Shown here piece by piece: positions 1-11,300 of a stretch of DNA of 64,000 nucleotides (positions within the stretch are counted from its first letter, which is position 1; each line of letters begins with the position of its first letter). Location: contig NW_026943822.1 of the NCBI RefSeq assembly GCF_035594765.1, forward strand, positions 8,331,769-8,395,768, given 5' to 3'. Made by a program: the position numbers and the translations under genes. The stretch is from Anolis carolinensis. Taxonomy: Eukaryota. The notes under the pieces were generated by a model, which did not search any database, was not told the origin of the DNA, and saw only the letters and a program-made list of their open reading frames with translations.

Positions 1-64
1 AAATCAAAATCAAATATATATTATGCATATAATATATAAAATATAAGTGTCTTATAACCTTTAC

Positions 65-367
65 TGTCAGAACCCTGCTACTAGAGCCTGGATGTGGCTC
101 TGAGTTTCAGGGTCACTGACATTGATAAGACACCTGCGTCCCAGGACTCGGAGGAGAAACGGCTGATGGACTTGGCGGGGAATTTGCGCGGGGTTTTACT
201 GAGCGGGAAGAGACTGTTCAAATGAGGGGGAGGGTATATAAAGGAGGGTTGGCCGGAGCCTCCCATTCTTGGCTTTTCTGATGTTCATGTTTCCTACAGT
301 AAAAGTTCCTGGTGATACCACAAAGAGTCTCGTGTGTTCATTCAGGAGCGGCTGTGGTGAGCTGACA
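65..367 (+). repeat. 5' LTR (TATA 235-242, Inr CCATTCT with +1 near 265, AGTAAA polyA-like signal 298-303)
   Basis: No difference from 5079-5381 found by eye; TG...CA ends with 6-bp terminal inverted repeats. Confidence 0.96.
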
Positions 368-369
368 CT

Positions 370-380
370 AAGCCAAGAAT
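370..380 (+). promoter_or_regulatory. Primer-binding site of self-priming type (AAGCCAAGAAT)
   Basis: Lies 2 nt after the LTR, has no TGG start, and is the exact reverse complement of 265-275. Confidence 0.8.
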
Positions 381-415
381 TCGGACACCATCCCGCTGTA
401 GCGGTGAGGTGTAAC

Positions 416-3400
416 ATGCAAGTGGAGGATGAAGAGCTCTTGGGCGCCGGAGGAGGAAGGTCGGAAAGGGCCACTCCCGAGACGGACGCTGAGTTCCACC
501 AGCTGGCGGCCCTGGCGTCATCCACCGCTTATGCCCAGCCAAATGGGGTAACCCAGAGGCGCGGAGTGGTGCGGGGAGATAGCACCGGAGGAGAGGAAGG
601 TTCACCTTCCCCAGGCCCGCAAAAGATGGTGTTTCTGGAGGAGAGGATGTCGGCGATGGAGACCACCCTGGCAGTGATGTCGAGGGCGATGGAGCGCCTG
701 GCGGTTTTGGCGGAGCCGGAGCGAGGAAGGGAACTCAGGGCTAGCTCAATGTGGGACGTGAGCATGGGAAGCAGCCAGGGCTTTGCAGACCTCCCAGCAC
801 CGAAGGGAAGGGAAATGCGAAAGGAGCCCGGTGCCCGGCCCAAGATCCAAACGAGCCTGACGCGGGTGGAGGAGAGTGACGACGAAGGGGAAAAGCCTCC
901 GAGAATCCCGGCTACGCTCCCAACTGAGACCCTGGTGCCCCTGGCGAATGCCGGGCGTGGCACAGGACAAAGGGAAGCAGCAGCGGGGCCCACTGGCCCG
1001 CAAGGGGGCTTGCGACGGGCGGAGGATTGGGGATTGCCACCACAGGGACCCCTACCGAGACGAGAGGAACTAAGGATCGAGTTTGGGGGAGAGTCCTCTG
1101 AACTGGATTTTTTCCTGACCACGGTGAGGGGCTATATGGAGGACAATGCCCACACTTTTAGAACGGAATCCAGCCGGGTACGGGCCATTGGTGCAGTGTT
1201 GAAGAGGGGAGCGGCCAGCTGGTACGTTCAACTACATGCGCGGCGCGACCCATGTCTGGGGTCACTCCGACGCTTTATGGGGGCCCTGGAGACCCGTTTC
1301 CGAGATCCACTGGAGCAGATCCGGGCGAGGGAGGAGTTGAAGACCGTCTCCCAGGGGCAGAGGTCGGTATCTGAGTATGCGGAGGAGTTCCAATGCCTCG
1401 CTGAAAAGGTGCCGGAATGGTCTGCAGTGACAAAGATAGAACTCTTCAAAGAGGGTCTCAGGCGGGAGATCCTCTCCTGGGCGGTGCATCGTGATGAGCC
1501 TGACACACTGCGCGGATGGATTCAGCTGGCGGGGCGCATCGAGACATCGCTGGCCCAGGCGAGGAGGCACCGAGGAGGGCTACAGCAGCGGCCGCAGATG
1601 AAAGAGGGGAGCCGGAAGGAGGGATCAACCCCAGCCGGGAGGAGAACGGAGCCGACAGGGAACGTGAGCACCAGCAGGAGGGGCTGCTTCGTGTGCGGCC
1701 GTTTGGGCCACAGGGCTGCCGAGTGCTGGCAGAGAAAAGGGGAAGGCGGAGGCCCGCCCAAACCAAGAGCCGTGGCAGGGAAACGCGCCGAGGAAGAACC
1801 ACCGATGAGGCACCACTCGGGGGGGTTGGTAAGTCAGGACAAAGCCATGATAGTGGTCCCCATTCAGCTGGAAAGTGGCAGCAAACAAGCAACCTGCAAA
1901 GCATTTGTGGATTGTGGATGTTCCAGGAACATCATCTCCCCTGAATTAGCCGAGGGATTGGGATGCGAAAGAACGAACCTAGAATCCCCAATAGCTTTCT
2001 CGCAGTTGGACGGATCCACAGCATCGGGATCATTAGCTAAGTACAGTGCCGAAGATGTAAAGTGTAAGATAGGGAGTTGGGAAGGAAAGGTGTCATTTGT
2101 GATATCACAAATAGCCAGCTATAATGTTATACTAGGCATGCCATGGCTGGGGCAGGCCAACCCGCAAATCAACTGGGAGGATAAGAGCATGATTTTCAGG
2201 ATGAAGTTGGAAGGAGGGAGCCAGGAAGTGGAAAGGGAGCCGGGGAAAAGGGGGGAGGAAGACTCTATCAGGATAGCAGAACTGGCAGATAAATTACCCC
2301 CAGAGTATCGGGATTTTGTGGACGTATTTGATGAGAAGGAAGCAGACAGTTTCCCGCCGAAGCGGAGAGTTGAAGTGAAGATAGAGCTAGTCCCAGGAGC
2401 AGAGCTTCCTAAGGCAAAAATATACCCAATGTCGGCTAGGGAAAAGGAGGAACTGAGAAAATACATTGATAAAAACCTAGCGAGGGGTTTCATAGAGCCC
2501 TCAAATTCCCCTCTAGGGGCGCCTGTGTTATTCAGGCGCAAAAAGGACCAAACGCTGAGGCTCTGCATTGACTACAGGGGCCTGAATGCAATTAGTTCTG
2601 GAAATAAATACCCCCTACCTTTAGTGAAGGACTTGATCGCCCAGTTATCGGAGGGACAGATATTCACTAAATTGGACTTAATTGAAGCGTACCATAAATT
2701 GCAGATTAAACCAGAGGACAGGTGGAAGACGGCCTTTTCCTGTGCATTCGGATTATTCAATTATCGTGTGCTCCCTTTCGGTTTGTGCGGCGGAGGCGCC
2801 GCGTTCATGCAATTAATCAACGAAGTGTTGCATCCATTGTTGTACAAGGGAGTCTTTGTTTTTTTAGATGACATATTGTTAGTATCTCGGACTAAGGAGC
2901 AACATATAGAACTAGTCAGGGAAGTCCTGCAAAAGTTGAGAGAAGCAAAACTGTATGCGAAGCTTGCCAAGTGCGAGTTCAATAAAGACCAGATAGACTT
3001 TCTGGGGTATAGGATTTCATCCCAGGGAGTGGCGATGGACCCTGCGAAGGTAGAAGACGTGAGGGGGTGGGAAGCCCCCAAAACACGGAAGCAGCTGCAA
3101 TCCTTCCTAGGGTTCGCAAACTTCTATAGAACATTTATCAAGGACTTTGCGCGCCTCACTTTGCCATTAACGGATTTGTTAAAGACTAAAGGCAGGGGAG
3201 AAACAGCCAAAGTGAAGGCCCCAGGGGCCAAACTGACCTGGACAATAGAATGCCAGGAAGCTTTCGAAGCCCTTAAAAAGCGTTTTACGGAGGAGCCTGT
3301 CCTACAGCACCCTGATATGTCGAAAGCCTTTGTATTACATTGCGATGCGTCAGACCGGGCATATGGGGCAGTTCTGCTACAGAAAGACGAGGGGGGGAAC

Positions 3401-5032
3401 CTGAAGCCATGTGGCTATCTGTCAAAAAAGTTTAGCGATACAGAAAAAAACTGGCCGATTTGGGAGAGAGAAGCCTTAGCGATTCTAAAAGCACTAGAGT
3501 GCTGGAGACACTTCCTGGAAGGAAGTGGAACACCGTTTGAGGTGTGGACTGACCATAGAAATTTACAGTATCTAAGATCCCCTCGTAAACTATCAGCGAA
3601 GCAAATTAGATGGGCCCAATATTTCAGCCGTTTTGATTTCAAACTCAGATTCTTCCAGGGGAAACATAATATACTCGCTGACGCTCTCTCTCGAATGCCT
3701 CAGCACGGGGGAGGAATTCAGGAATCTGAAGGGAGTATTTTTCTTGATAAGCAATGGGGCCTGGCAGTACTAACTCGAGCACAAGCGGCCAAAGAAAACA
3801 AACGTACTGCCATTTCCACGGGGGGAGGAGAAATATGGGAGGAAGAGTTGAAGCGAGCGTATGGAATGGACAAATGGTTACAAACAAACAAAGAAAAGGG
3901 AGAATTGTGTGGGGATTTGGTGTTTGTAAATAAGAAATTGTATATTCCTGAATGTTTAAGACGAGAAATGTTAAGGAAGTACCATGATAACAAGGGTGCG
4001 GGTCATCTAGGCCCCACCAGGACTATTAAACTGTTGGCCAAACAATGCTGGTGGCCCGGAATGAGGAAAGACGCCAGGGGGTACGTCACGCAGTGTGAAT
4101 TATGTGCAGAGGGAAAAACACCACCGGGGAAGCCCCAGGGGCTATTGCAGAAGGTGGTGGAGCCCATGAGGCCATGGGAATGCGTAGCCATGGATTTTGT
4201 AGGCGAACTACCCCCCAGCAGAGGCCACAGATACATTTGGACAATATTGGACCTATTCTCAAAACAGGCACACTTTGTGGCTCTGCCAAAACTTCCTTCA
4301 GCTGAAAAACTTGCTGATTTGTATGTGAAGCATGTATATCGCCTACATGGGTGTCCCGACAAGATAATTAGTGACCGGGGAGTCCAATTTACTGCAAAAT
4401 TTTGGGGAAAATTCTTACAGCTGTTAGGAGCAGAAAGGAACCTGAGCTCGGCCTTTCATCCCGCGACCAACGGGGGGGTCGAACGTACCCAACAGACACT
4501 GTGCCAATTCTTAAGGATGTACACCAATTATAGACAGGATGATTGGGCGGACCTTCTTCCGTTTGCTGAGATGGCTTTTAACGGGGCCGTACATTCGGCC
4601 ACAGGTCGTGCCCCATTCGAAATAGTATACGGACAGGAGGTGGCACCTTTCCCCAGGCTACCAGAGTGGAAGGAAGGGGAGGGCCAGACCGACGAGGAAT
4701 GGCCGGCCAAAATCAAGCAAGGGTGGCAAACCGTGGTAGAGGCATTGCGGGAAACACAAAAGAAGTACAAGCTCTTTGCGGATCGTAGGCGCCGAGAGGG
4801 GGACAAATTGGGCGAAGGAGATCTGGTTTGGCTGAGCACAAAAAACCTGAAATTGGGGTTCCCATCCAAGAAATTGGCTCCACGCTATATAGGACCATTC
4901 AGGGTAGCAAAAAGAATAAACGAAGTGACCTATGAGCTGAGGCTACCAAAGGACCTAGGAAAGGTACACCCGGTATTCCATTGCAGCCTGTTAAAAAAGT
5001 ATAAAGGAACTCTGGACAGCGGAGAACAATAG
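416..5032 (+). CDS. Gag-Pol polyprotein (capsid, CCHC knuckle, aspartic protease, RT, RNase H, integrase); the frame is open from 269
   Basis: Motifs CFVCGRLGHRAAEC, FVDCG, LPFGL...FLDD, CDAS, HHCC zinc finger, MDF...SDRG...E and YIGPF; no stop or frameshift. ATG 416 has A at -3. Confidence 0.95.
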   Translation: MQVEDEELLGAGGGRSERATPETDAEFHQLAALASSTAYAQPNGVTQRRGVVRGDSTGGEEGSPSPGPQKMVFLEERMSAMETTLAVMSRAMERLAVLAEPERGRELRASSMWDVSMGSSQGFADLPAPKGREMRKEPGARPKIQTSLTRVEESDDEGEKPPRIPATLPTETLVPLANAGRGTGQREAAAGPTGPQGGLRRAEDWGLPPQGPLPRREELRIEFGGESSELDFFLTTVRGYMEDNAHTFRTESSRVRAIGAVLKRGAASWYVQLHARRDPCLGSLRRFMGALETRFRDPLEQIRAREELKTVSQGQRSVSEYAEEFQCLAEKVPEWSAVTKIELFKEGLRREILSWAVHRDEPDTLRGWIQLAGRIETSLAQARRHRGGLQQRPQMKEGSRKEGSTPAGRRTEPTGNVSTSRRGCFVCGRLGHRAAECWQRKGEGGGPPKPRAVAGKRAEEEPPMRHHSGGLVSQDKAMIVVPIQLESGSKQATCKAFVDCGCSRNIISPELAEGLGCERTNLESPIAFSQLDGSTASGSLAKYSAEDVKCKIGSWEGKVSFVISQIASYNVILGMPWLGQANPQINWEDKSMIFRMKLEGGSQEVEREPGKRGEEDSIRIAELADKLPPEYRDFVDVFDEKEADSFPPKRRVEVKIELVPGAELPKAKIYPMSAREKEELRKYIDKNLARGFIEPSNSPLGAPVLFRRKKDQTLRLCIDYRGLNAISSGNKYPLPLVKDLIAQLSEGQIFTKLDLIEAYHKLQIKPEDRWKTAFSCAFGLFNYRVLPFGLCGGGAAFMQLINEVLHPLLYKGVFVFLDDILLVSRTKEQHIELVREVLQKLREAKLYAKLAKCEFNKDQIDFLGYRISSQGVAMDPAKVEDVRGWEAPKTRKQLQSFLGFANFYRTFIKDFARLTLPLTDLLKTKGRGETAKVKAPGAKLTWTIECQEAFEALKKRFTEEPVLQHPDMSKAFVLHCDASDRAYGAVLLQKDEGGNLKPCGYLSKKFSDTEKNWPIWEREALAILKALECWRHFLEGSGTPFEVWTDHRNLQYLRSPRKLSAKQIRWAQYFSRFDFKLRFFQGKHNILADALSRMPQHGGGIQESEGSIFLDKQWGLAVLTRAQAAKENKRTAISTGGGEIWEEELKRAYGMDKWLQTNKEKGELCGDLVFVNKKLYIPECLRREMLRKYHDNKGAGHLGPTRTIKLLAKQCWWPGMRKDARGYVTQCELCAEGKTPPGKPQGLLQKVVEPMRPWECVAMDFVGELPPSRGHRYIWTILDLFSKQAHFVALPKLPSAEKLADLYVKHVYRLHGCPDKIISDRGVQFTAKFWGKFLQLLGAERNLSSAFHPATNGGVERTQQTLCQFLRMYTNYRQDDWADLLPFAEMAFNGAVHSATGRAPFEIVYGQEVAPFPRLPEWKEGEGQTDEEWPAKIKQGWQTVVEALRETQKKYKLFADRRRREGDKLGEGDLVWLSTKNLKLGFPSKKLAPRYIGPFRVAKRINEVTYELRLPKDLGKVHPVFHCSLLKKYKGTLDSGEQ

Positions 5033-5059
5033 TTGTGTTTAATCTTTTCCTTCCAGGAC

Positions 5060-5073
5060 GAAGGGGAGGAGGA
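5060..5073 (+). promoter_or_regulatory. Polypurine tract
   Basis: GAAGGGGAGGAGGA, 5 nt upstream of the 3' LTR. Confidence 0.85.
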
Positions 5074-5078
5074 CGCCA

Positions 5079-5381
5079 TGTCAGAACCCTGCTACTAGAG
5101 CCTGGATGTGGCTCTGAGTTTCAGGGTCACTGACATTGATAAGACACCTGCGTCCCAGGACTCGGAGGAGAAACGGCTGATGGACTTGGCGGGGAATTTG
5201 CGCGGGGTTTTACTGAGCGGGAAGAGACTGTTCAAATGAGGGGGAGGGTATATAAAGGAGGGTTGGCCGGAGCCTCCCATTCTTGGCTTTTCTGATGTTC
5301 ATGTTTCCTACAGTAAAAGTTCCTGGTGATACCACAAAGAGTCTCGTGTGTTCATTCAGGAGCGGCTGTGGTGAGCTGACA
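5079..5381 (+). repeat. 3' LTR
   Basis: Direct repeat of 65-367 at offset 5014. Confidence 0.96.
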
Positions 5382-5575
5382 CTTTACTGTATAAAAAAGT
5401 GTGGATGTTTTTCCTTAACACCTCTTATGTCCTACAGTTGATTCTTGTGTTGTTTCCTCTACAGCCTCTCCACGGGGTTCATCACAAATCATTATCAACA
5501 AATGTTGTTTTCTTAATTAGAAACTTAATCTGTTTTAGTGGTAATGACTGCAACTTGTGCAAATTATAGGTAACA

Positions 5576-5875
5576 GTAAAAGTTTCCCCCTGACATTAAG
5601 TCTAGTCGGGTCCATCTTTAGGGGGTGGTGCTCATCTCCATTTCTAAGCCGAAGAGCCAGCATTGTCATGTGGCCAGCATGGCTGCATGGAGTGTCTTCC
5701 TGCCACAGTGGTACTTATTGATCTACTCACATTTGCGTGTTTTGGAACTGCTAAGTTGGCAGAAGCTGGGGCTAAGAGCGGGAGCTCACCCCGCTCCCCG
5801 GATTCGAACCACTGACCTTTCGGTCAGCAAGTTCAGCAGCTCAGTGGTTAAACCCCGTGCACAACCGGGGGCTCC
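5576..5875 (-). mobile_element. Sauria-type SINE (internally deleted)
   Basis: tRNA-like head and ACCTTT-like tail on the minus strand; matches other copies in the window. Confidence 0.85.
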
Positions 5876-6098
5876 TGCAAATTATAAGAGTTATAATTTA
5901 AACACTTGAACAACACTCTGGAATTTTGGCCATTGGTACTTTGGACCCATCTGATGGAATAGAAGAAAGCTGGATTTTAATTTTTATGATTTTAGCAGGA
6001 CTGTATGTTTTGTTTTCTGATGTCTATCTTGTATGGTTTTCTACTGGCAATTGAATGTTTTGTTCATGTTGGAAACTGCTTTGAGTCCTCTTGGGGAG

Positions 6099-8920: not shown

Positions 8921-9922
8921 TCTATATCCACATAATAAAAGTGAAAATCTGTATGTGTGTATGTGGCACGGGTGTCTGCTCACATAAACAGCCTCTGGCC
9001 TCCACAAACAGGCTATAGTTCCAAGTGCTGAGGTCACTCCCTCCCATGACATTGCAGGTTATAGCGGGCACATCCCAGCGTTCCTTTCTCTCTCCATTTG
9101 CATGACCCTGCCCATTGCCTCTCTCTTAACCTTTCCCTACCCTTTTCTATGGCACACAGCAAACAGAGGACTTGATCAGCAAATGAACATACTGGAGAGG
9201 GTTGGAGAGAATTCACCATGATTTCTAGGAGGTGTAGGGACTGGGATGTATAGATTGCCTGCAATCTAAGATCACTCTGAACCCCACCAACGATACACCT
9301 GGAACTCACTTGGCACACAGACCCAACATGATTGACCTTGACATCCTGGAGTTATAGTTCACCTGTATTCAGAGAACTCTGAACCCCTCTAATGACGGAT
9401 CTGGACCAAACTTGGCACCCAAATTCATGGCCAAGAGGGAATACTGGTGGACTTTGGGAGTGATTGACTTTTAACTCTGGGAGTATTCCGTAAAGTCCTC
9501 TGAACCCCATCAATGATGGATCTGGACCAAACTTGGCACACAGACCCAGCATGGCCAACTGTGAATACTGGCGCAGTTTTGGGGTGATTGCCCTGGGAAT
9601 TTGGGAATTGTAGTTCACCTTTATCCAGAGAATATTGAACCAAGCAGATGACAGATCTGGAGCACATTTGGCACACAGACCCAACATGGCCAACTGAGAA
9701 TACTGGGGGAGTATTAGGAGGGATGACCCAAGATTTTGAGTGATTGTAGTTCACCCATATCCTTATGCATTTTCTAATGGGATCATTCATAATAAACAAA
9801 AGCAAAGACTGATCTCCCCCTAAGAAATGGCATAACATTTGATCAAACTGAAATGGCCTAACATCCCAAAACAAACAAGGCCTTTTTCAAATAACCCGAG
9901 CATCACCAGGTACCCAAGCTAA
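8921..9922 (+). mobile_element. Non-autonomous Helitron, family B
   Basis: 5' TC, degenerate 3' hairpin plus CTAA, internal subrepeats; homologous to 58932-60102. Confidence 0.7.
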
Positions 9923-10972: not shown

Positions 10973-11300
10973 AGTAAAGATAAAGGTTTCCCCTGACGTT
11001 AAGTCCAGTCGTGACTGACTCTGGGGGTTGGTGCTCATCTCCATTTCTAAGCCAAAGAGCCGGAGTTGTTCATAGACACCTCCAAGGTCATGTGGCCGGC
11101 ATGACTGCATGGAGCGCTGTTACCTTCCCACAGGAGCCGTACCTATTGATCTACTCACATTTGCATGTTTTCGAACTGCTAGGTTGGCAGGAGCTGGAGC
11201 TAACAGCAGGCGCTCATTCTGCTCCTGGGATTTGAACCTGGGACCTTTTGGTCTGCAAGTTCAGCAGCTCAGTGCTTTTAACACACTTCATCACCGGGGC
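10973..11300 (-). mobile_element. Sauria-type SINE (copy A), with (TAT)n at 11304-11352
   Basis: Full-length family match. Confidence 0.9.

What the first reader, a model, noticed from the sequence alone, without database searches (positions are those of the whole stretch)
235..412. tRNA-independent self-priming: the PBS is the exact 11-nt complement of the element's own predicted RNA 5' end
Seen: there is no TGG-type tRNA PBS after the 5' LTR. Instead AAGCCAAGAAT (370-380) is the perfect reverse complement of ATTCTTGGCTT (265-275). Position 265 is the A of an initiator-like CCATTCT, 30 nt downstream of TATATAAA (235), so it is the expected +1. U5 AGCGG..TGGTG (347-359) can also pair with leader CACCA..CCGCT (386-397), bracketing the PBS. 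The leader can alternatively fold on itself (ACACC/GGTGT and CCGCT/AGCGG, 385-412). Established: fission-yeast Tf1 primes with the first 11 nt of its own mRNA, and this has been proposed for the Tf1/sushi group. Inference: an intact amniote self-priming element with a possible two-state leader structure.
Basis: partly seen in the sequence, partly recalled or inferred. Interest (0 to 1): 0.75.

Follow-up and report, generated by a model that had tools for sequence, protein, structure and literature searches.

The report
Self-priming lizard retrotransposon with spliced Gag
A young, high-copy jumping gene of the green anole carries a primer site that matches the predicted first 11 letters of its own RNA instead of a tRNA, so it likely starts copying itself the way yeast Tf1 does (a known trick of its group), and it likely makes its coat protein by splicing out the whole enzyme region, which our literature searches found described only in the other (copia) superfamily.

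Summary
Confirmed. Window 65-5381 is an intact Ty3/gypsy LTR retrotransposon of Anolis carolinensis (identical 303-bp LTRs, one ORF, over 800 copies). Bases 370-380 perfectly complement 265-275; there is no TGG. Six related anole families keep the layout with different letters: site 2 nt after the LTR, 10-12 pairs, TATA-like box 30-31 nt upstream. New support: 130 of 827 copies vary at 380-381, the site's far edge, in many independent events, while the primer is invariant; this fits copying errors at the end of an 11-nt primer. The start site and the cleavage were not measured. The two-state leader is weak.

Self-priming is the known hallmark of the Tf1/sushi group, where the element falls, so that part is ordinary. 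More unusual, shared with two sister families: frameshift and chromodomain lost, mostly 6-bp target duplications, and a conserved donor (1829) and acceptor (5056) that would remove all of pol. RefSeq models use this junction; four transcript-contig sets did not list it. The scan noted self-priming before only in copia and BEL/Pao elements of other genomes.

The parts
59..64 (.). left target-site duplication CTTTAC (6 bp)
   Evidence: repeated at 5382-5387; 6 bp in 32 of 38 scorable full-length copies
65..367 (+). 5' LTR, 303 bp, TG...CA
   Evidence: no difference from the 3' LTR
235..242 (+). TATA box TATATAAA, at -30 from the predicted start
   Evidence: TATA-like motif at -30/-31 in all seven families (permissive motif list)
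265..275 (+). predicted first 11 nt of the RNA = self-primer
   Evidence: 262-276 identical in 145 of 145 copies
282..367 (+). predicted R-U5 hairpin that brings primer and primer site together
   Evidence: 276-369: z -2.06; 6 variant pair types keep pairing, 3 single-copy variants break it
298..303 (+). poly(A)-signal variant AGTAAA (would act in the 3' LTR, 5312-5317)
   Evidence: AATAAA at +32 to +39 in families B, C, F, G
347..359 (+).
   Evidence: weakly supported
370..380 (+). primer-binding site, 2 nt after the LTR, complement of 265-275
380..383 (+). variation hot spot at the 3' edge of the primer-binding site
   Evidence: (130 of 827 copies differ at 380 or 381)
385..412 (+). predicted leader hairpin just before the ATG at 416
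   Evidence: 381-415: z -2.78, 4 of 200 shuffles as good
416..5032 (+). single gag-pol ORF, 1538 aa from ATG 416: Gag, protease, RT, RNase H, integrase, SH3; no chromodomain, no env
1829..5056 (+). predicted intron covering all of pol (GTAAGT at 1829; pyrimidine tract and CAG ending at 5056)
   Evidence: RefSeq models end as this splice predicts; joint not listed
5057..5098 (+). predicted last coding piece of the spliced Gag (13 codons and TAG, running into the 3' LTR)
5060..5073 (+). polypurine tract
   Evidence: sequence
5079..5381 (+). 3' LTR
5382..5387 (.). right target-site duplication CTTTAC

Best explanation
This is an intact Tf1/sushi-group LTR retrotransposon whose primer site is the exact complement of bases 265-275; its RNA is predicted to start at A265, fold back so those 11 bases pair with the site, and likely be cut after base 11 by the element's RNase H so that the short piece primes reverse transcription without a tRNA. 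Shown: the complement, its position, its covariation in six other families, the hot spot at 380-381. Inferred: a long R-U5 hairpin holds the two halves together; during plus-strand synthesis RT copies the primer to its 5' end and there stops short, slips or adds untemplated bases, which become the 380-383 variants after strand transfer; the site is rewritten from the primer in each cycle, which would itself keep the two matched. [quoted passage not shown] Second, separate inference: the same RNA is spliced from 1828 to 5057 to give a Gag-only message, replacing the -1 frameshift that related families keep.
For: Complement and chance level. 17 of 20 loci of six other families show a 10-12 nt perfect match starting 2 nt after the LTR; 2 had no LTR pair and 1 was a nested copy that the script delimited wrongly. 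Six different primer sequences; all 11 positions show 2-4 pair types; +1 is always a purine after a pyrimidine; TATA-like motif at -30/-31 in 7 of 7. Hot spot: 80 copies differ at 380 and 50 more at 381, against 697 with the common TA; in 67 copies picked without regard to 375 onward, 380 is the most changeable of 1736 sites (5 changes, mean 0.29) and 375-379 never change; 20 alleles and about 51 changes among 145 copies. G at 381, expected if the RNA began upstream in CCC 262-264, occurs in 2 of 827. The base after the site is C in 6 of 7 families, as a copied cap G would give (inference). Fold of 265-412: z -4.03. Tree. Tf1 mechanism and untemplated additions by Tf1 RT: PMC7175516, PMC3185545 (passages). 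Splice: donor GTRAGT 25-30 codons before the protease aspartate in families A, B, C, D, F, G, in a different codon phase in C; 22 family-A, 41 family-B-type and 3 Anolis sagrei protein records of the 81 seen end as the splice predicts.
Against: No 5' end was mapped: only assembled contigs were available. The tRNA check covered 44 genes of 8 amino-acid classes only, and found a 9-nt internal match of tRNA-Thr(AGT) to 367-375. Parsimony counts are inflated by a poorly resolved tree and by recombination; 9 of 154 partial copies were dropped. Family B showed no edge variants in 19 of 19 copies, so the hot spot is not general. Family A itself has A, not C, after the site. The third duplex of the Tf1 'pretzel' is poorly supported. 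Splice: no 1828-5057 joint was listed in 4 contig sets, no pol-less genomic copy was found, and I could not see whether the RefSeq models rest on RNA reads.
Confidence: 0.88

Rival explanations
1. A host tRNA fragment is the primer, for example a 5' piece of tRNA-Thr(AGT) whose D-arm pairs with 367-375, and the match to the LTR serves another purpose.
For: 9 contiguous complementary bases in 4 tRNA-Thr(AGT) genes. Half-tRNA priming exists in copia lineages (PMC6317226, passages). Twelve amino-acid classes were not sampled.
Against: Shorter than the 11-nt self match; it covers the LTR's last base rather than starting after it; about 0.1 such matches are expected by chance (my estimate); six other families have unrelated sites that each match their own LTR; the hot spot sits at 380, the end of the self match, not at 375 or at the end of an 18-nt tRNA site.
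Confidence: 0.04
2. The primer is the element's own RNA 5' end but works in trans: it is cut from, or is the end of, another transcript (a co-packaged genome, the spliced Gag RNA, or a solo-LTR transcript) and no fold-back is needed.
For: Sequence cannot tell cis from trans; hundreds of identical LTRs can make the same 5' end; the third duplex is weak.
Against: The R-U5 hairpin that juxtaposes primer and site is predicted in A, B, C, G and less cleanly in D, F, and natural variants mostly keep it. Tf1 needs the folded structure (bioRxiv 2022.12.06.519325, passage).
Confidence: 0.06
3. The pairing is an RNA structure for translation or packaging, or a chance inverted repeat, and priming happens some other way.
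For: No start site or cDNA end was measured; an in-frame ATG at 281 lies inside the folded region.
Against: Fixed 2-nt spacing from the LTR end and fixed TATA distance in seven families, absence of any TGG site, and the edge hot spot are not predicted by this reading.
Confidence: 0.02

Closest known systems
Tf1/Tf2 of Schizosaccharomyces pombe, Tj1, Tosmo1-3
   Same: 11-nt primer at the RNA 5' end complementary to a site just after the 5' LTR; single ORF (Tf1); Ty3/gypsy domain order; Tf2-1-type SH3 domain (PMC7175516, PMC4600332, bioRxiv 2022.12.06.519325, passages).
   Different: No chromodomain; the LTR/leader duplex of the three-duplex 'pretzel' is weak here; Tf1 is described as getting excess Gag by loss of Pol proteins (PMC7175516, passage), whereas this element has a predicted pol-removing intron; target duplication mostly 6 bp (5 bp for Tf1, recalled).
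[quoted passage not shown]
   Same: Tree position among fish, amphibian and fungal chromodomain-bearing elements; self-priming proposed for the vertebrate members (Butler et al. 2001, seen only as cited in PMC6317226, PMC4600332 and the bioRxiv paper); active full-length chromoviruses reported in Anolis (PMC3670739, passage).
   Different: Families A, B, G form a 100/100 subclade with one ORF, no chromodomain and mostly 6-bp duplications; families C and D keep a GGGAAAC slippery site and a chromodomain (C below the Pfam cut-off), and C, D, E, F representatives have 5-bp duplications. No named reference element was in the tree.
Drosophila copia, Arabidopsis EVADE and barley BARE1 (Ty1/copia; Gag from a spliced RNA)
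   Same: Single-ORF element predicted to make a Gag-only RNA; in Drosophila copia the intron covers all of pol, about 3 kb, as here (3228 nt) (PMC5580714, passages).
   Different: Other superfamily; that paper reports no such conserved splicing in Arabidopsis Ty3/gypsy elements.

Membership tests
Ty3/gypsy (Metaviridae) | Gag, protease, RT, RNase H, integrase in that order between LTRs | tested here: met
   best solved-structure match is Ty3 Gag-Pol, E 7.7e-131
Tf1/sushi group (fungi/vertebrate chromovirus branch) | RT-RNase H groups with fungal and vertebrate chromovirus-type elements | tested here: met
   inside a 100/100 clade of fungal, fish, amphibian and squamate proteins, many with chromodomain; midpoint root; Tf1, sushi-ichi and Amn-ichi themselves were not available
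Tf1/sushi group (fungi/vertebrate chromovirus branch) | no tRNA-type primer site; site complementary to the LTR's R region | tested here: met
   tRNA sample partial (44 genes, 8 classes)
Tf1/sushi group (fungi/vertebrate chromovirus branch) | primer is the true 5' end of the RNA | not testable with these tools
   only contigs were laid; indirect support from TATA spacing and the edge hot spot
Tf1/sushi group (fungi/vertebrate chromovirus branch) | three-duplex 'pretzel' structure | tested here: inconclusive
   central duplex and R-U5 duplex supported; U5/leader duplex possible but broken in 21 copies by 3 variant types and kept by 3 types in 5 copies; p 0.05 and 0.16 in family A, mixed elsewhere
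Tf1/sushi group (fungi/vertebrate chromovirus branch) | RNase H cleavage after the last primer base | not testable with these tools
   RNase H domain present; activity not assayed
Chromovirus in the strict sense (chromodomain-bearing) | chromodomain at the integrase C-terminus | tested here: not met
   absent in A, B, G; present in D, E, and below cut-off in C. Not filed as a chromodomain-bearing member; read as a secondary loss
tRNA-primed LTR elements | TGG-starting site complementary to a tRNA 3' end | tested here: not met
   no TGG in 368-385
Elements making Gag from a spliced RNA (works-like comparison only) | spliced transcript lacking pol | tested here: inconclusive
   conserved signals and RefSeq models for; joint not listed; no genomic pol-less copy

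The most novel reading that the evidence does not exclude
A squamate lineage of self-priming gypsy elements replaced ribosomal frameshifting by copia-style splicing: an older donor, already sitting behind the gag stop in frameshifting relatives, was captured to end Gag when gag and pol fused, together with loss of the chromodomain and a switch from 5- to 6-bp target duplications. Its hundreds of near-identical copies also record the capped 5' end of the RNA primer as a mutation hot spot, giving a genome-only proof of self-priming and of the start site in a vertebrate.
Probability: 0.6. Interest if true: 0.62.

Novelty: new variant of a known kind. Interest (0 to 1): 0.45.

Why it matters
The priming signature alone is a new member of a known kind. 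Self-priming has been shown experimentally in fission yeast and only inferred elsewhere; this family adds two kinds of genomic evidence for a land vertebrate and is young and abundant enough for direct end-mapping in lizard tissue. The edge hot spot is a test that can be applied to any high-copy family with a disputed primer. If the pol-removing splice is real, a gypsy lineage has converged on the copia way of making excess Gag, and the frameshifting sister families preserve the earlier step. This is the lineage related to mammalian PEG10/RTL1-type genes (PMC3670739; database names). Dozens of RefSeq 'uncharacterized proteins' are this spliced Gag.

Tried and rejected
No RNA holder was on record (RNA status is a guess); contigs could not show a start, and the 1828-5057 joint was not listed. 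A contig break at 1830 in run X3 was considered as a splice trace and rejected, because a splice would branch after 1829. A search for pol-less retrocopies of family A gave 0. No Rfam family in 1-6000. Two-state leader: forcing the U5/leader pairs without pseudoknots gives -37.5 against -57.1 kcal/mol, but that comparison cannot include the crossing primer duplex, so it does not exclude it. No in-family compensatory change between primer and site exists among 145 copies because neither varies (370-374 fixed by the search anchor in most copies, 375-379 in the variant-enriched set). Primary papers on Tf1 priming and the Microbiology Spectrum review were not held; Butler 2001 and Piskurek 2009 were seen as citations only, so whether this family is already named, or whether Amn-ichi is family E, is unknown. 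Literature searches for prior reports: Anolis+gypsy+LTR retrotransposon+self-priming 0 papers; squamate+gypsy+splice donor+gag 0; searches listed nothing on point by title and abstract start. Repbase and subscription journals were not searchable. No supplements were read.

Full report
What the window holds. Bases 65-5381 are a complete LTR retrotransposon: two identical 303-bp LTRs (65-367, 5079-5381), a 6-bp duplication CTTTAC on both sides, and one open frame ending at 5032. Pfam finds Gag, aspartyl protease, RT, RNase H, integrase and a Tf2-type SH3 domain, with no chromodomain and no envelope. The nearest database proteins (98% and 95% identical over RT-RNase H) are from Anolis carolinensis. 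A 19-nt junction motif occurs 801 times in the genome. Of 40 consecutive copies fetched whole, 29 keep the 1596-codon frame, and 32 of 38 scorable ones have identical LTRs. The family is very young.

The observation. The 11-nt complement, the TATA box at -30 and the missing TGG are as described. Four of 5000 LTR shuffles reach 11 nt anywhere in the LTR, and 21 of 2316 control positions in the window do. Folding 265-412 gives the primer duplex, closed by a long R-U5 hairpin, followed by the leader hairpin (z -4.03, 0 of 200 shuffles).

Covariation. Using anole proteins as queries, I fetched 20 loci of six other families, B-G, at 48-80% RT-RNase H identity. Seventeen show a perfect 10-12 nt complement that starts 2 nt after the LTR's CA; two lacked an LTR pair and one nested copy was wrongly delimited. 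The primers are ATTCTTGGCTT (A), ATTCTCGACTTT (B), AGTAAAAGCTT (C), ATTCAGTACAA (D), GCGGAGTCAA (E), AGTAGTGTTAT (F) and ATTCTCGACTT (G). Every one of the 11 positions has two to four pair types. In each representative a TATA-like motif lies at -30 or -31, +1 is a purine after a pyrimidine, and R plus U5 is 99-108 nt except in E (the motif list was permissive). The pair table is perfect by construction; the informative part is that a match of this length exists at the same two places each time.

A footprint of the primer's end. Genome-wide, 697 copies read TA at 380-381, 80 differ at 380 (72 A, 7 G, 1 C, counted by hand) and 50 more differ at 381, with many one-base insertions and deletions. 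In 67 copies chosen without regard to 375 onward, 380 is the most changeable of 1736 sites and 375-379 do not change. Among 145 copies, enriched for variants, there are 20 alleles; the commonest variant has about 13 origins in 15 copies; the primer side 262-276 is identical in all 145 (9 partial copies of 154 dropped; counts are inflated by poor tree resolution). I read this as the place where plus-strand synthesis runs off the primer. Tf1 RT is known to add untemplated bases (PMC3185545, passage). An 18-nt tRNA site would put the edge near 387; an RNA starting upstream in CCC would put G at 381, seen in 2 of 827. The base after the site is C in six of seven families, which would fit a copied cap (inference). 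Against: family B showed no edge variant in 19 copies; family E showed variation a few bases further on in 4 of 10.

The tRNA rival. A mature tRNA end needs TGG, which is absent. Among 44 anole tRNA genes of 8 classes, the best contiguous match is 9 nt inside tRNA-Thr(AGT), to 367-375. It is shorter, misplaced and not shared by the other families. The sample is incomplete.

The two-state leader. It crosses the primer duplex, so the folding program cannot score both together. Natural variants keep the R-U5 hairpin in 6 pair types (141 occurrences) and break it in 3 single copies; they keep the U5/leader duplex in 3 types (5 occurrences) and break it in 3 types (21). Against shuffles the leader/U5 duplex scores p 0.05 and 0.16 in A, 0.01-0.03 in most C tests, 0.003-0.17 in E, and is not significant in B, D, F, G. 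I give a functional switch about 25%.

Family placement. On an RT-RNase H tree of 45 proteins, A groups with B and G (100/100), inside a squamate-only clade (100/100), inside a clade of fungal and vertebrate proteins (100/100), many with chromodomains. No named reference was available. Self-priming is the described common feature of this Tf1/sushi group in fungi and vertebrates (PMC6317226, PMC4600332, PMC7175516, bioRxiv 2022.12.06.519325; passages), and full-length chromoviruses are reported in Anolis (PMC3670739 passage; PMC2774666 passages on the V-clade).

What is less ordinary. A single-ORF element needs a way to make excess Gag. A GTAAGT lies at 1829, at the end of gag, and a pyrimidine tract with CAG ends at 5056, just after the pol stop. 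A GTRAGT sits at the same place in B, C, D, F and G but not E; in C it is in another codon phase, which argues for selection on the RNA. Acceptor-like tracts follow the pol stop in A, B, C, F, G. The window's frame before the donor ends HHSGGL and the frame after the acceptor reads DEGEEDAMSEPCY-stop; RefSeq protein XP_062825221.1, from a cluster of 89, ends in exactly these two pieces. Of 81 proteins seen, 22 have this tail, 41 the family-B equivalent and 3 an A. sagrei equivalent. Three contigs from two studies join foreign sequence at 5054-5056, as upstream exons spliced into this acceptor would (RNA status guessed). Against: the direct joint was not listed in four contig sets, no pol-less genomic copy exists by exact pattern, and the evidence behind the gene models is not visible. 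I put the splice at about 75%. In C and D a GGGAAAC slippery site precedes the gag stop, and in C, D and F the donor lies behind that stop, which suggests the donor is older than the gag-pol fusion (inference). The precedent I found is in copia elements (PMC5580714, passages). A, B and G also lack the chromodomain and mostly make 6-bp duplications: A 32 of 38, B 12 of 16, G representative 6 bp; C, D, E, F representatives 5 bp.

Earlier scan notes. None for this genome or for a spliced gypsy Gag; eight notes report self-priming in copia or BEL/Pao elements elsewhere. They did not change my reading.

Verdict. Observation confirmed; self-priming likely (0.88) and of a known kind; two-state leader weak; the lineage is a variant because of its likely spliced Gag, lost chromodomain and 6-bp duplications. 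Interest 0.45.

Noticed in passing
window 1829-5056: Predicted intron removing all of pol; donor conserved in six of seven families; RefSeq gene models use it.
   Followed up: partly
window 59-64 and 5382-5387; L061-L100; family B loci L102-L120: Target-site duplications are mostly 6 bp with a minority of 5 bp in the chromodomain-less families A, B, G, and 5 bp in representatives of C, D, E, F.
   Followed up: partly
window 5057: The acceptor before the 3' LTR appears to take upstream host exons (three contigs, two studies), so copies may act as gene traps; one RefSeq record in the family-B cluster is named as an RPA 32 kDa isoform.
   Followed up: no
L155 (G000:C2:241498840-241508839) against L153, L154, L156: One family-C copy has gag and pol in one 1662-codon frame through a one-base difference, while the others keep two frames: a natural instance of the fusion seen fixed in A, B, G.
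   Followed up: partly
window 281-283: An in-frame ATG only 16 nt after the predicted start, inside the R-U5 hairpin; many RefSeq models start there (529 aa), others at 416 (484 aa).
   Followed up: no
G000:C1:147249797 and 147254811; C1:187209022 and 187214036: Pairs of junction motifs exactly 5014 bases apart, suggesting tandem copies that share an LTR.
   Followed up: no
L160-L162 (family E): 975-bp LTR with a 545-nt R-U5, yet the same self-primer layout; no donor at the gag end. Possibly the described Amn-ichi; not tested.
   Followed up: partly
window 5579-5849, 10982-11277 and 9275-9741: A dispersed repeat present twice at about 82% identity, and a degenerate tandem array of about 121-135 nt units.
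   Followed up: no
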